64,000 bases of DNA, from NCBI GenBank assembly GCA_965218435.1, contig CBDCKW010000009.1:3648001-3712000 (forward strand). Direction: 5' to 3'. Origin of the DNA: Truepera sp. (GTDB taxonomy: Bacteria > Deinococcota > Deinococci > Deinococcales > Trueperaceae). Below, piece by piece: positions 1 to 64,000 of this stretch (positions within the stretch are counted from its first letter, which is position 1; every line of letters starts with the position of its first letter). The position numbers were made by a program.

Positions 1-3000
1 GAGTTGTCACGGGGGACGTTATGACAAGAAACACAGAAGTAGAACTGCTGACAGGCGGGAGGAAAACCGATGCTCCCGACTGAACTGCTGATGTTTCGTT
101 ATAACGGCGAAGAGTTGGTCCCCAAACGTCTGAAACACGACAAGACGACGTTGACAACCGCGCAAGACATTATCGGACTTTTCGACCGGCACCGGGGGCA
201 GCGGCGCGGCGAGTTGGACGAGCAGTTGGGGGTACTCGAGGGTGAAGCCACCGACTACCGCACGAAACGGGGCCTGGCGCATCTTTTACGGAGCGGGTTC
301 AGCACCTTTGAAACCGTGAGCCCCGTAGAGCCGCCCCTCCTCCGTGAACGCGTTTTTTCCCTCGCCGCTGCCGGTTTGCCGAGCCCGCAAGCTGCCAAGG
401 TGACCCTTGAACGCGCCGCTGCCGCCCTCAGCACCGAACTCGGGCGTGAAGTTCACCCGGAAGAGGTCACGCGCGGGCTCTACGCCGACCTTGCTGAAAA
501 CCAGCGCCTCACAGCGTTTGAGCCGCCCGACCCGAAAGCTTTGGTAGACCGCTACAACCTCTCACAAGTACAGGGCGTCTTGTACCGCGCTCAGCGTGTC
601 GTCATCAACGCGCACCGCAACGACCCCGGCGAATACAAGCTTTTGTTTCGTTACCTCAAACTGTTCGGCCTGATGAGCTATATCGAAGGGGACGCTGACC
701 ACGGCTTTACTATCACCGTAGACGGCCCTGCGAGTCTTTTTCAGGGGAGCCCGCGTTACGGTTTGGCGCTCGCTAAGCTGTTACCCGCGCTGTTACACGT
801 GACGCGCTGGAGTTTGGAAGCCGACCTCGTCCCCCGCACTTTATATGACGGCACCACGACGCCCGCGCGGTTTACCCTCGAGTCGGATTGCGGTTTGGTC
901 TCGCACTATCCACCCGGTAAAACGTATGACAGCATGCTCGAGGCGTCGTTTGCCGAGCGTTGGAGCAAGGCAAAAACTGAGTGGCAGCTCGAGCGCGAAG
1001 TAGACTTGGTGAGCATCCCCGGCTCCGTGATGGTTCCCGATTTTCGCCTGGTTCACCCCGACGGGCGCTCGTTTCTCTTGGAGATTGTCGGCTACTGGCG
1101 ACCCGAATACCTCAAAAAGAAGTTTGCCCAAGTCAAAAAAGCTCTGCGCGATGACCTCATTTTGGCGGTCTCCGAAAAGCTCAATCTGGGCGGCGCAGGG
1201 ATTAAGCTAGACGACATCCCGGCGAAAATCGTCTGGTTTAAGGACAAGCTCATTCCCAAGTCGGTGTTGTCGCTGCTGCCTTAGCAGCAGCTTTGGTAAG
1301 CTATTGGGAAACAACTACCCGTGCCCTTCGTATCATGACAATCATGTCTCCATTTACCTACTCTGATTCAGAGCTCCAAGAACTAAAAATAGATGTCGGA
1401 ATACCTATTGAAGAAATTGGAGACTTCATCATCCACTTTGGACGCGCAGGTGAAAAGTGGAGAATTTCAAATGATCTGAAAAGGTCCCATCTCTACGACG
1501 TTCTAGCCGGACTTGTTTTTATGTCTTGGTTTCCTGACCAAACGGAGGTTTTTGGGCCTCTAGAGAAACTAAAAGAATACAGATTCCTCAATAATGGTTT
1601 GTTAGAGGATTCTGATGCGGATATGTTGAGGGGAGTCTTGAGGCATGTCAGCAGTCCTGCACTAAAGGCTCGAATCGGTGATGCTTTATGGAGTTTCAAG
1701 AAAGACCATAAGAGTGCTAGGACTGCGATTTCGTCGTATATGGACTATGCCAAATTGACCGATGACCTTGAACACTGGCGTGAACCAGTTCATGCATTAA
1801 CACGAGCCCTCGCTGTGGCAAAAAGTCTGGGTAGAAATGCGCCAGAAATCAATGAAGTCTTAGAGTACATCCAAGAGTGCGTAATTAGAGCGAATGCTCA
1901 AGACCCCTACTTTTATTCCAACCGACTTATCCGGCTGCTAACTGACAACGAGTATGGCGACTTGAATCAGCTTGGCAGTTTTGCCGAAAGGCTTGCGGTC
2001 AACGAAGAAAACAAGCTTGAACCAGCATGTGAACGAGCACAGCAACATTGGCAGTTGGCTTCGGACTGCTATCGCAACCTTGGGGATAAAGATAGAGAGC
2101 GTCAAGCAATAATCAACAGTGCAGAGACATGGGTAAAGGTGGCAGAGGTTGAGCTTCAACACCCTACACTAGCTCGTTTTCAAATCTCGGCTAAGTATGA
2201 GAGAGCAATCCACATTCTTCGAACTCTTCCAGATACTCAAGGTCGTGTAAACGAATTACGCCAAAAACTCCTCGAGGTACAGAGTGAGGCGAGAAAACAG
2301 ATGATCCCCTCAACGATTTCTCTCGAAAACGATCCTGAAGTTTTGAGACTTAGAGAAATGTCTATTAAAGCGGTAGATGAAGGAAACTTTTTTCACGCTC
2401 TTATTGCTCTTGCAAAACTGCATTTCTCTTCATCTCATCAAGATATGCTTGAGCAAGCAAAAGTGGCTCGAGAAAAATACTTGCTTCAAAGGTTATTCCC
2501 TACAAAGGTAGTTGATGCCTTTGGGCGAACTGTTGCTAATCCGCCACAAACTGAAGACGAGCAGCTCTTAGCAGACGTATTTCAGAATCAAAATCTGCTT
2601 CGCCAAAGTATTGTTGGGCTATCCATCGAACCTGCACGACAGGAAGTTGTACATGCCCATGTGTTCAGCATGAACGACTTGGCAATAATTCTTGACGGCA
2701 ATCCACTTATTCCATACGGGCATGAGTACTCAGTTGCAAAGGGCCTATTTGCTGGCTTGCAAGGTGATTTCTTCACGTCTTCACATATGTTAGTCCCACA
2801 ACTAGAAGCCACCTGTAGGCATTTACTTACAGTTCAAGGTGTATTCTCTTCAAAATACTCAAAAGATGGCGTTCAAGACGAAATAAGCCTCAACCGTATG
2901 ATTGAAGAGGAGCAGTATTCTTCGGCAATCTCAGCAGTTCTCGGCCAAGATACAGTGTATGACCTTCGTGGTCTTTTAGTTGATAGATTCGGAGCTAGTT

Positions 3001-63000: not shown

Positions 63001-64000
63001 GACAAAGCTGGAAAGGAAGGCGGCAACGAGACGTTTTACGCCGTCTCGTCAAACCCGCTCTGGGCAAGAGCGTTTTATGACCTGATTGCGACGCCTGCCA
63101 GCATCCGCTACTTTTTGCAGAAGAGTTTCGTCGGGCCGGTGCCCCAAGACCTAGCGCGTTACAGCTACCTGACCTCGCATCAACCGGGGGCCGAACACGT
63201 CCCGCTGCGGTTTATCGCCGGCAAGCTCTTTAGCCCGCAAGTCAGAAAGCGGGTTTACGAACAGCTGAACGTACCGACGCTGGTGCTCTTCGATGAAGAC
63301 GGCTTTGTCAGCTTTGAAAAACTGCCTACACTGACCGCTGCCAACCCCAAGGTCAAGGCAGTGAGGCTCGAGCCCTCGAAAGGCTTGCCGCAGTTTGAGA
63401 TGCCGAGCCGCACGGCGCAGGTGCTGGACAGCTTTTGGCGTGAAGTCGGCGTTCACACCTAACGAGCTTTATAGCTGGGATGTGATTTGCTTGCGCCCAT
63501 CAAAAAGCCCCCGCTCTATACGGGGGCTCGACCACGCTGTCCAAGACAGCTTTTATTTTGGCTCCGCGGGTAGGGCTCGAACCTACGACCGATCGATTAA
63601 CAGTCGATTGCTCTACCACTGAGCTACCGCGGAACACGCGCCCGCATAACGTTCAAGCAGGCGAAGCCAGTTTAACAGGGTGCGCTCGCCCTTGGCAAGT
63701 GCAAGGCGCTCAGACGTCCTCTAAGTACGTGTACCCCACTAACTCCGCACTGTACTTGCTGAGGAGCGCCTCAGCGTCCGGGCGCGACAGGGTACCGTTT
63801 GCCATCGCCTCATCCGCCTCTTCAATGAGCCAGTCCCGAAGCTGCGGTGCTTCGTAGCCCATATTTTCAATGACGCGGCGCGCCTTTTGACCATTGACGA
63901 TACGTTCGATGATGAAACCTTCGGGTGTCAAGCGGATGTGCGCTTCGTTGACACGGCCGAAGAGGTTGTGCGAGTTGGCCAGCACATCTTGGTATGCGCC

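What a model noticed while it worked through the whole genome (the two positions that open the first line are those of the whole stretch)
1..64000. Chromosome-wide excess of exact 15-bp tandem duplications
Perfect head-to-tail duplications in this genome have a sharply peaked size spectrum: 36 runs (31 loci) of period exactly 15 bp, against 14, 6, 3, 8, 2 and 1 runs for periods 12, 13, 14, 16, 17 and 18 and one run for all periods 19-60. Of the 17 runs with 2.5 or more perfect copies (periods 5-60), 12 have period 15. All 15-bp loci lie on the chromosome C9, none on the other 0.86 Mb. 21 loci sit in frame inside genes, adding pentapeptide repeats to KhpB, a dsRBD protein, a SurA/PrsA-like protein, an E2 linker, GGDEF/EAL proteins and others; 10 are intergenic, where 16-bp duplications (8) are about as common and 17+ nearly absent. 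Eleven two-copy runs are exactly 30 bp long, i.e. without flank [...]
Evidence so far: Own exact scans of periods 5-60 and 8-60; coding/non-coding split; chance expectation of a perfect 2x15 run in 4.8 Mb is 0.004. TRF lists 18 of 29 arrays (period >=12, >=3 copies) with period 15. Same scan on relatives: G044 (congener, ~80% DNA identity) 8 runs of period 15, 5 of 12, none of 13,14,16-60 in 800 kb; G043 (congener) 7 of period 15 against 5 (12), 4 (14), 1 (21), 1 (30) in 400 kb; but G023 (68% GC congener) 1 of 15 among 13 runs spread over 12-21 in 400 kb and G035 (other genus, 58.5% GC) 0 of 15 in 400 kb. Copy number varies between near-identical strains: the dsRBD protein g02345 has 4 QDGSG units here, 2 in two database proteins 98-99% identical, 0-1 in those 89-92% identical The finding spans contig positions 262226 to 3723787; this window holds only 3648001 to 3712000 of it. 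[...]
(Added by a program. Inside this text positions count along the whole contig: contig position 3,648,001 is position 1 of the stretch shown here. "Call 12" and the like, gene names such as g00115 and contig names such as C1 are that model's own, and its searches are not shown. The text may have been shortened before it was handed on; [...] marks where a part breaks off. The agent that wrote the report below was given it as the finding of a first reader that could run no searches.)

Follow-up and report, generated by a model that had tools for sequence, protein, structure and literature searches.

The report
Repeat-independent 15-base tandem duplications, genome-wide
The chromosome of this Truepera-like bacterium keeps gaining short head-to-tail duplications that need no pre-existing repeat, never exceed about 16-18 bases and pile up at 15, and their ends carry the sequence mark of a DNA-nicking topoisomerase, which may show how new tandem repeats are born.

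Summary
All lie on the chromosome. None lies in this window, which holds only decayed 15-, 16- and 18-bp arrays.

The repeats are real. Out-of-frame periods avoid genes, copy number differs between near-identical strains, and one array differs by one unit between two sequencing runs.

The 15-bp peak is composite:
- New duplications need no microhomology and are AT-richer than their flanks.
- One-mismatch intergenic copies span about 10-16 bp with a hard ceiling; none has a period of 19-29.
- Genes admit only multiples of three.
- 15-bp loci are the ones that grow to three or more copies (17 of 31, against 6 of 54 for shorter periods).

At 84 phase-defined duplications, C stands 4 nt upstream of both junctions (125 of 336 sites against 24.7% at control offsets, p = 3e-7), mostly on one strand. 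This matches the published cleavage preference of type IA topoisomerase I. An E. coli topA mutant makes repeat-independent duplications of 2-19 bp.

Best reading, at about 45%: topoisomerase-I-linked birth of duplications, then unit-wise growth. The enzyme shows no unusual residue. Relatives (n = 47) do not repeat the mark.

The parts
1..64000 (.). The window as a slice of the chromosome-wide signature. It holds no perfect tandem run of period 10 or more, only decayed arrays.
   Evidence: the only perfect runs of period 8 or more are 19408-19423 (8 bp), 55848-55864 (8 bp) and 56632-56652 (9 bp). TRF rows. The nearest perfect 15-bp runs lie at contig positions 3612611, 3721076 and 3723758.
27477..27507 (-). 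Decayed 15-bp duplication (2.1 copies, 87% matches), in frame in the gene 27245..28408 on the minus strand (by my reading of the translation, a CCA-adding enzyme or poly(A) polymerase family protein). It gives the pentapeptide pair LGAGG / LKAGG.
   Evidence: TRF; ORF translation; sequence.
28439..28487 (.). Decayed array of 16-bp period (about 3 units) in the 223-bp intergenic gap 28409-28631.
   Evidence: TRF, (two overlapping rows of period 16); sequence.
28580..28624 (.). Decayed 15-bp array of three units, each starting GGACACCT. It ends 7 bp before the ATG (28632) of a gene that I read as CorA-like.
   Evidence: TRF, (2.9 copies, 82%); sequence; ORF.
10956..11009 (.). 18-bp x 3.0 array (86% matches) in the gap between the divergent genes 10040..10939 (minus strand) and 11123..12739 (plus strand). 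It is one of the few arrays above the 16-bp ceiling.
   Evidence: TRF; sequence; ORFs.

Best explanation
This is a mutational signature of the lineage, not a repeat family: every unit has a different sequence.

Step 1, largely shown. Short head-to-tail duplications arise from non-repeated DNA without any microhomology. They occur mostly in AT-richer stretches and have a hard upper length of about 16-18 bp.

Step 2, inferred. They are made at cleavage sites of the cell's single type IA topoisomerase (topoisomerase I). The enzyme cuts one strand 4 nt downstream of a C and holds the 5' end covalently. It then rejoins that end to a 3' end lying 10-16 nt further along the same strand, which also has a C at -4. 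That 3' end could arise after the freed end is extended by a polymerase. It could also come from an exchange between two cleavage complexes in one melted bubble, or in two genome copies. No base pairing is needed at the joint.

Step 3, shown as a pattern, mechanism inferred. Once two copies exist, the longest units (15, and 16 outside genes) gain and lose whole units. This may happen by slipped pairing or by repeats of the same enzyme reaction at in-phase sites. It keeps these arrays perfect and multi-copy.

Step 4, shown. Inside genes only multiples of three survive. With a ceiling near 16, this leaves 15 as the longest allowed unit. Hence the pentapeptide repeats in proteins and the 15/16 pair between genes.
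For: The duplications are real and recent:
- Counts and shuffles.
- 13-, 14-, 16- and 17-bp runs lie almost only between genes.
- The QDGSG array has 4 units here against 2 in proteins 98-99% identical.
- One contig of run X2 lacks one 15-bp unit at array 363897-363946, while X1 keeps it.

No microhomology:
- Of 72 two-copy perfect runs of periods 10-15, 40 (56%) have no extension, 14 have 1 bp and 8 have 2 bp. Random flanks predict 56, 28 and 10%.

Ceiling:
- On C9, loci with at most 1 mismatch number 73, 17, 4 and 2 for periods 15-18, none for 19-29, one for period 30 (which lies in a 15-bp array) and none for 31-60.

AT-rich units:
- Units have 35-48% GC against 51-54% in their flanks between genes, and 51% against 59% for perfect 15-mers in genes.

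Topoisomerase mark, at 84 unique-phase duplications:
- Counts of C at 1-9 nt upstream of the left junction are 23, 21, 28, 36, 22, 23, 24, 22, 27.
- Upstream of the right junction they are 20, 17, 20, 31, 16, 18, 15, 18, 23.
- The mirror-image G counts peak at the same distance (35 and 23).
- The sum is 125 of 336 sites against 24.7% at the other eight distances (p = 2.7e-7).
- The peak appears in every subset: periods 10-12, 13-18 perfect, 13-18 with one mismatch, between genes, and in genes.
- Same-strand pairs are associated (odds ratios 2.7 and 3.8). Opposite-strand pairs are not (0.54 and 0.67).

Literature:
- Bacterial and archaeal topoisomerase I select a C 4 nt upstream of the cut (PMC3467081, abstract read).
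- E. coli topA R168C gives head-to-tail duplications of 2-19 bp, independent of existing repeats (PMC6954433, passages read).

The enzyme and unit growth:
- G000 has one type IA enzyme, with the C-binding residues kept.
- About 3 or more copies occur at 17 of 31 period-15 loci, against 6 of 54 for periods 10-14 (p = 2.5e-5).
Against: - The topoisomerase looks ordinary. The equivalents of E. coli R168, R169, R173 and Y177 are kept. No position differs from a residue kept in at least 90% of 119 homologues. So nothing explains why this lineage would make more duplications than others.
- The C(-4) peak is not seen in 47 duplications pooled from 400 kb of each of seven relatives. The two closest congeners give 17 of 44 sites at d = 4, tied with d = 7. 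That sample is small and may include chance matches, which I did not estimate.
- The authors of the E. coli study report that they found no common motif at their hotspots (PMC6954433, passage).
- Flank and unit end resemble each other more than chance at several distances: about 25 of 66 equal pairs against an expectation of about 17, by my estimate. This inflates the same-strand association somewhat.
- No known property of the enzyme predicts a preferred spacing of 15-16 nt, or of 10-11 nt.
- The secondary replicons are depleted. C5 has 1 locus of period 15 with at most 1 mismatch, where 12.7 are expected. A cell-wide enzyme does not explain this unless those replicons are recent arrivals.
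- The mark shows no bias towards a replication strand (31:26) or a transcription strand (11:9).
Confidence: 0.45

Rival explanations
1. Staggered breaks. Two nicks on opposite strands, 10-16 bp apart and with 5'-overhang polarity, fall apart. The short, AT-rich duplex between them melts, while longer ones hold and are resealed. Both ends are filled in and joined blunt, which duplicates the overhang.
For: - No microhomology.
- A hard length ceiling.
- Units are AT-richer than their flanks, most so at 16 bp: 35-41% against 52% GC.
- The highest unit Tm is about 51-59 C in all classes.
- Paired nicks give tandem duplications in plants (Schiml et al. 2016; I saw it only as reference 31 and one sentence in PMC6954433; the paper itself is not held).
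- The genus type species is recalled to be highly radiation-resistant.
Against: - No Ku and no ATP-dependent ligase domain in a genome rated 100% complete. Only PolX is present.
- The C(-4) marks pair up on the same strand, not on opposite strands: opposite-strand pairs number 19 against 23.5 expected, by my arithmetic from the marginals (odds ratios).
- It does not explain why 15-bp loci in particular grow to many copies.
Confidence: 0.12
2. Ordinary replication slippage plus selection. Duplications of all sizes arise by slipped pairing. Frame selection and fast loss of long repeats shape the spectrum. Arrays of 15 bp sit at the balance point between too short to slip and too long to last.
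For: - Multi-copy arrays with variant units in blocks, and a 30-bp two-unit duplication inside one array.
- Copy number varies between strains.
- The ratio of perfect to one-mismatch intergenic loci is higher at periods 15-16 (17:27) than at 12-14 (7:42; p = 0.009). This fits homogenisation by slippage.
- In gapped alignments with two congeners, long-fixed indels show no 15-bp peak: 12-bp gaps number 13-31 and 15-bp gaps 4-5.
Against: - Slippage needs a pre-existing short repeat, yet 56% of two-copy runs have none.
- No fossils with up to 3 mismatches at periods 19, 21, 22 or 23, and one each at 20 and 24. So long units seem never to form, rather than to be lost.
- The intergenic 15/16 excess cannot be frame selection.
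- It does not predict C at -4.
Confidence: 0.12
3. Footprints of a mobile element. These would be target-site duplications left after excision of a transposon or casposon that cuts its target with a 15-16-bp stagger.
For: Exact two-copy runs without flanking homology are what an excision footprint looks like. Casposons are recalled to make 14-15-bp target duplications.
Against: - None of the 16 largest repeat families (2-9 copies each) has flanking repeats of 15-16 bp. One family has repeats of 8-12 bp.
- No pair of 13-24-bp direct repeats 300-40,000 bp apart encloses terminal inverted repeats.
- Both Cas1 genes sit beside CRISPR arrays; on C9 a 96-residue ORF that I take to be Cas2 lies between Cas1 and the array.
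- Lengths spread from 10 to 16 bp.
Confidence: 0.03
4. An assembly or polishing artefact, for example one tied to a 15-mer word size.
For: The contigs look like a long-read assembly: several small contigs have overlapping ends or large internal duplications. The number 15 is a common word size (recalled).
Against: - Out-of-frame periods avoid genes.
- Many arrays are decayed by point changes.
- Independent database proteins carry the same units in other copy numbers.
- A contig of a public run shows a one-unit difference at an array.
Confidence: 0.02

Closest known systems
E. coli topoisomerase I (topA) R168C mutator (Bachar et al., Nucleic Acids Res 2020, PMC6954433; passages read)
   Same: Head-to-tail duplications that are independent of existing repeats. 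They are short (2-19 bp there; up to 18 bp here). The enzyme involved is a type IA topoisomerase, whose cleavage preference (C at -4) I find at the junctions here.
   Different: That case is a laboratory point mutant; here the enzyme has no unusual residue. No motif was found at the E. coli hotspots. No 15-bp mode and no growth into multi-copy arrays was described in the passages I read. Here the signature is a standing feature of a wild chromosome.
Variable-number tandem repeats made by slipped-strand mispairing (MIRU/VNTR-type loci; recalled)
   Same: Whole units are gained and lost between close strains. In-frame arrays lie in proteins and other periods lie between genes.
   Different: Birth without flanking microhomology. 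One narrow unit size across 31 unrelated loci. No shared unit sequence.
[quoted passage not shown]
   Same: Repeat-independent tandem duplication whose length is set by the distance between two nicks.
   Different: That case involves nicks on opposite strands and end joining in plants. Here the marks pair on one strand, and Ku and ATP-dependent ligase are not found.
[not shown]
   Same: Tandem duplications are kept very short (mean 12 bp). The authors ascribe this to the architecture of the copying machinery.
   Different: Those junctions share about 6 bp of microhomology on average. Here most share none.
Genome-wide perfect tandem repeats of Borg elements and of one ANME-1 chromosome (earlier notes e1-2899155 and e1-2899324; the Borg paper is recalled, not read)
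   Same: Many perfect, strain-variable repeats. Multiples of three lie inside genes, adding flexible inserts to housekeeping proteins.
   Different: As far as those notes say, no single dominant unit length, no ceiling and no junction mark.

Membership tests
Topoisomerase-I-type de novo tandem-duplication mutagenesis (E. coli topA R168C) | Head-to-tail duplications that are independent of pre-existing repeats | tested here: met
   40 of 72 two-copy perfect runs of periods 10-15 have no extension, as random flanks predict.
Topoisomerase-I-type de novo tandem-duplication mutagenesis (E. coli topA R168C) | Short lengths (2-19 bp in E. coli) | tested here: met
   Perfect runs reach period 18; the only longer one is a 30-bp run inside a 15-bp array. 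With at most 1 mismatch there are none at periods 19-29 or 31-60. Periods below 9 cannot be told from chance here.
Topoisomerase-I-type de novo tandem-duplication mutagenesis (E. coli topA R168C) | A substitution at or beside the C(-4) pocket of the enzyme (R168 in E. coli) | tested here: not met
   The motif RRxxDRxxGY is intact: R162, R163, R167 and Y171 align with E. coli R168, R169, R173 and Y177. No deviation at positions kept in at least 90% of 119 homologues.
Topoisomerase-I-type de novo tandem-duplication mutagenesis (E. coli topA R168C) | Junctions at type IA cleavage sites (C 4 nt upstream; PMC3467081) | tested here: met
   125 of 336 sites against 24.7% at control distances, p = 2.7e-7. 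This holds in G000 only; 47 duplications from relatives show no peak.
Topoisomerase-I-type de novo tandem-duplication mutagenesis (E. coli topA R168C) | A measured rise in duplication rate that depends on the enzyme | not testable with these tools
   This needs mutation-accumulation lines or genetics.
Slipped-strand VNTR arrays | Gain and loss of whole units between close strains | tested here: met
   4 against 2 QDGSG units at 98-99% identity. A 15-bp unit is missing in one run's contig.
Slipped-strand VNTR arrays | Origin at pre-existing short direct repeats | tested here: not met
   The extension spectrum equals the no-homology expectation.
Target-site-duplication footprints (casposon or insertion sequence) | A resident element that makes 15-16-bp target duplications | tested here: not met
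   Both Cas1 genes sit beside CRISPR arrays.
Non-homologous end joining of filled-in staggered breaks | Ku and an ATP-dependent ligase (LigD type) | tested here: not met
   PF02735 and PF01068 have no match in a genome rated 100% complete.
Non-homologous end joining of filled-in staggered breaks | Nick marks on opposite strands at the two borders | tested here: inconclusive
   Opposite-strand pairs number 19 against 23.5 expected; same-strand pairs number 33 against 22.9 (observed counts, expectations by my arithmetic from its marginals; odds ratios). This holds only if the C(-4) mark reports the nicks.

The most novel reading that the evidence does not exclude
A normal, unmutated type IA topoisomerase both starts and grows tandem repeats in a wild bacterium. 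It has a preferred reach of about one and a half helical turns (15-16 nt, with a second mode at 10-11 nt). Under this reading, new minisatellite-like arrays and pentapeptide linkers in proteins are written by an enzyme with a built-in ruler, not by polymerase slippage. The sharp 15-bp peak arises because the same spacing preference acts again at every round of growth.
Probability: 0.3. Interest if true: 0.85.

Novelty: new variant of a known kind. Interest (0 to 1): 0.7.

Why it matters
How tandem repeats start from non-repeated DNA is an open question. The authors of the E. coli topA study state that the mechanism of de novo formation is unknown (PMC6954433, passage). This chromosome offers a natural data set. 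It holds about a hundred young duplications with defined borders, a hard length ceiling, a junction mark that points to one enzyme, and near-identical strains in which events could be polarised.

If the link holds, it would show that the laboratory topA mutator type has a natural counterpart. It would also explain a source of strain-variable flexible inserts in housekeeping proteins.

I found no report of such a signature in a wild lineage in five full-text searches. Earlier unchecked notes of this scan describe a similar case in a marine Opitutales lineage.

Tried and rejected
- Shared motif in and around the ten exact 30-bp runs: nothing convincing beyond small-sample noise.
- Target-duplication survey of repeat families, and a scan for direct repeats plus inverted ends: no 15-16-bp case (one search timed out first).
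- Casposon idea: both Cas1 genes belong to CRISPR loci.
- Indel-length spectrum from blastn alignments of 400 kb of G004 and G005 to G000. The first run was cut off at 12 bp; I suspect the gapped-extension drop-off limit. With a higher limit there is no 15-bp peak among long-fixed gaps at about 78% identity, so this approach cannot see the young events.
- Strand of the C(-4) mark against replication direction (31:26) and against the coding strand (11:9): no bias.
- Clade-specific residues in the topoisomerase: only conservative changes (I/V, I/L, K/R, A/S and the like).
- C(-4) test in relatives: no peak, n = 47.
- The 5.5-copy array at contig position 353858 in the public runs: I found no listed contig piece that bridges it, so nothing can be said about its copy number.
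- Only 400 kb of each of 7 of the 40 relatives was scanned.
- Supplements of PMC6954433 were not opened. They may list the E. coli junctions, on which the C(-4) test could be repeated.
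Full report
**The organism and the data.** The window is G000:C9:3648001-3712000. 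C9 is a 3.94-Mb chromosome in a nine-contig, 4.81-Mb genome with 57% GC. A repeat-bearing protein finds its nearest relatives in Truepera and Trueperaceae records. Source names in the protein search agree. So this is a member of the Trueperaceae (Deinococcota).

**The observation.** My own exact scan covered periods 4-80, at least two perfect copies and primitive units. It gives 14, 6, 3, 36, 8, 2 and 1 runs for periods 12 to 18. Beyond that there is a single run, of period 30, inside a 15-bp array. The 36 period-15 runs make 31 loci. All 31 have different unit sequences and all lie on C9.

By length share alone, the chance that none of 31 loci lies outside C9 is 0.002. Shuffles that keep local composition give at most 0.2 such runs from period 13 up. 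TRF shows the same peak among decayed arrays. At score 50 or more, C9 holds 99 arrays of period 15, against 19, 29, 13 and 12 for periods 14, 16, 18 and 21. A triplet-shuffled chromosome holds 3.

None of the perfect 15-bp runs lies in this window. The window holds:
- a decayed in-frame 15-bp pair (27477-27507, LGAGG/LKAGG);
- a gap of 223 bp with a decayed 16-bp array and a decayed three-unit 15-bp array just before a gene start (28439-28624);
- an 18-bp array in a divergent gap (10956-11009).

**The repeats are real.**
- Runs of periods 13, 14, 16 and 17 lie almost only between genes, while periods 12 and 15 lie mostly within genes. Selection has therefore seen them.
- The dsRNA-binding-domain protein with four QDGSG units here has two units in two proteins 98-99% identical. 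It has none or one in those 88-92% identical.
- Two public runs hold this DNA. They come from one sample and one study, possibly the assembly's own source. In one run a contig lacks exactly one 15-bp unit at array 363897-363946, while the other run keeps it. The only other listed indel in those 20 kb is an 11-bp insertion beside a sequence that resembles it (my reading, using the flank shown).

**What the peak is made of.** Between genes, perfect loci number 8, 14, 1, 3, 3, 11, 6, 1 and 0 for periods 10 to 18. Copies with one mismatch, which are older, number 16, 25, 16, 12, 14, 18, 9, 3 and 0 after subtracting the shuffle.

So the underlying spectrum is broad, from about 10 to 15-16 bp, and then stops. 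On the whole chromosome, loci with at most one mismatch number 73, 17, 4 and 2 for periods 15 to 18. There are none for periods 19-29 or 31-60, and the one at period 30 lies inside a 15-bp array. With up to three mismatches there are none at periods 19, 21, 22 or 23 and one each at 20 and 24. Long units therefore seem never to form, rather than to be lost quickly.

The perfect class is enriched at 15-16 relative to 12-14. The ratio of perfect to one-mismatch intergenic loci is 17:27 against 7:42 (p = 0.009). Loci of period 15 are also the ones that grow. 17 of 31 have about three or more copies, counting decayed ones, against 6 of 54 for periods 10-14 (p = 2.5e-5). Inside genes only multiples of three survive, and with a ceiling near 16 the longest allowed unit is 15.

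**How the duplications begin.**
- A duplication made by slippage between two short repeats leaves a run longer than two periods. Of 72 two-copy perfect runs of periods 10-15, 40 have no extra base, 14 have one and 8 have two. Unrelated flanks predict just this, so no microhomology is used.
- The units are AT-richer than their flanks. Between genes they have 35-48% GC against 51-54%. Perfect 15-mers in genes have 51% against 59%.
- Period 16 is odd: none of its five two-copy runs has zero extension (p = 0.016). I cannot explain this.

**Mechanisms tested and set aside.**
- None of the 16 largest repeat families has flanking duplications of 15-16 bp.
- No pair of 13-24-bp direct repeats encloses inverted ends.
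- Both Cas1 genes sit beside CRISPR arrays, so a casposon is unlikely.
- Ku and an ATP-dependent ligase domain are not found, though PolX is present. This weakens classical end joining of filled-in staggered breaks.

**The topoisomerase lead.** Earlier notes of this scan on a marine Opitutales lineage pointed to type IA topoisomerase and to the E. coli topA R168C mutator. I treated them as a lead only.

The E. coli paper reports head-to-tail duplications of 2-19 bp that are independent of existing repeats (PMC6954433, passages). Bacterial and archaeal topoisomerase I select a cytosine 4 nt upstream of the cut, read by R169, R173 and Y177 (PMC3467081, abstract).

I therefore took all duplications on C9 whose phase is unambiguous. 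These are 41 perfect ones of periods 10-18 and 43 with one mismatch of periods 13-18, 84 in all. I counted C at 1-9 nt upstream of each border, and G at the mirror positions. All four rows peak at distance 4 (36, 31, 35 and 23 of 84).

The sum is 125 of 336 sites, against 24.7% at the other eight distances (p = 2.7e-7). The peak is present in each subset I made. G is depleted and A/T enriched at -5.

The marks at the two borders go together on the same strand (odds ratios 2.7 and 3.8) and not on opposite strands (0.54 and 0.67). Part of the same-strand link may come from a general likeness between flank and unit end.

**The enzyme itself.** G000 has a single type IA enzyme of 980 residues. It is closest to the mycobacterial enzymes among solved structures. 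The four residues named above are kept. No position departs from a residue kept in at least 90% of 119 homologues. Clade-specific changes are conservative. So this is not a natural copy of the R168C mutant. If the enzyme makes the duplications, it does so as a normal enzyme.

**Relatives.** I scanned 400 kb from each of seven of the 40 relatives.
- The ratio of period-15 to period-12 perfect runs is 36:14 here. Pooled over G001, G008, G016, G026 and G033 it is 5:19 (p = 4.6e-5).
- Congener G004 (58.8% GC) shows the peak: 7 TRF arrays of period 15, the top class. Congener G005 (57% GC) has few arrays of any kind.
- G008, of another genus (60.5% GC), has peaks at both 12 and 15.
- The two samples of 68% GC show no peak.
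- In all of them, near-perfect duplications above 18 bp are rare. The ceiling may thus be common to the order, and what marks G000 is the bump at 15-16.
- The C(-4) peak does not show in the 47 duplications from relatives.
- Long-fixed gaps in alignments with G004 and G005 show no 15-bp peak.

**Secondary replicons.** C5 (0.68 Mb) has 1 locus of period 15 with at most one mismatch, where 12.7 are expected. It has 3 TRF arrays where 17 are expected (both p about 4e-5). It shares insertion-sequence families with C9, so it likely sits in the same cell. A recent arrival is the simplest reading, but I did not test it.

**Model and weight.** My best reading is as follows.
1. Topoisomerase I cuts at a C(-4) site in a melted, AT-rich stretch.
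2. It rejoins its covalently held 5' end to a 3' end 10-16 nt further along the same strand, which also offers a C at -4. This could happen after polymerase extension, or by exchange between two complexes.
3. The result is a duplication that needs no homology.
4. Growth by whole units and frame selection then sharpen the peak at 15.

I give this about 45%. The birth without homology, the ceiling, the AT bias, the junction mark and the preferential growth at 15 are shown. The enzyme's role and the way arrays grow are inferred. The preferred spacing, the ordinary look of the enzyme, the silence of the relatives and the clean secondary replicons remain unexplained.

Noticed in passing
contig C9 3381480-3381562 (outside the window): 10- and 11-bp tandem duplications made of DnaA-box-like words (TTATCCACA). 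They lie where cumulative GC skew has its minimum (3.37 Mb; the maximum is at 1.43 Mb). This is probably the replication origin.
   Followed up: partly
window 32015-32945 and 33240-33822: One copy each of a 7-copy, roughly 935-bp repeat family and a 6-copy, roughly 585-bp repeat family (insertion-sequence or MITE-like), side by side.
   Followed up: no
contigs C2, C5, C6, C8: Large internal or mutual duplications. Examples are C5 1-63.5 kb against 242.5-306 kb, C6 1-7942 against 12982-20923, and C2 against C5. They look like overlapping ends or alternative forms of plasmids in a long-read assembly.
   Followed up: no
contig C9, five two-copy runs of period 16: All five carry 1-2 extra matching bases, and none has zero (p = 0.016). 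Runs of periods 10-15 mostly have zero. Unexplained.
   Followed up: partly
contig C9, whole: No gene-strand bias: 1537 of 3114 crude gene calls are co-oriented with replication.
   Followed up: no
L170 10271 and 19162-19281 (C9 354271 and 363162-363281): Strain variants in the public runs. One is an 11-bp insertion beside a sequence that resembles it. The other is a 118-bp stretch replaced by 15 other letters.
   Followed up: no
window 50446-50800 and 63562-63633: Three tRNA genes in a cluster and one more near the window's end.
   Followed up: no
contig C9 2946344-2955879 and contig C3 1326-6338: Two CRISPR loci, each with a Cas1 gene beside a repeat array.
   Followed up: partly
contig C9 975926 and 1001218: The same 11-bp unit is tandemly duplicated at two places 25 kb apart, which hints at a small dispersed element.
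   Followed up: no
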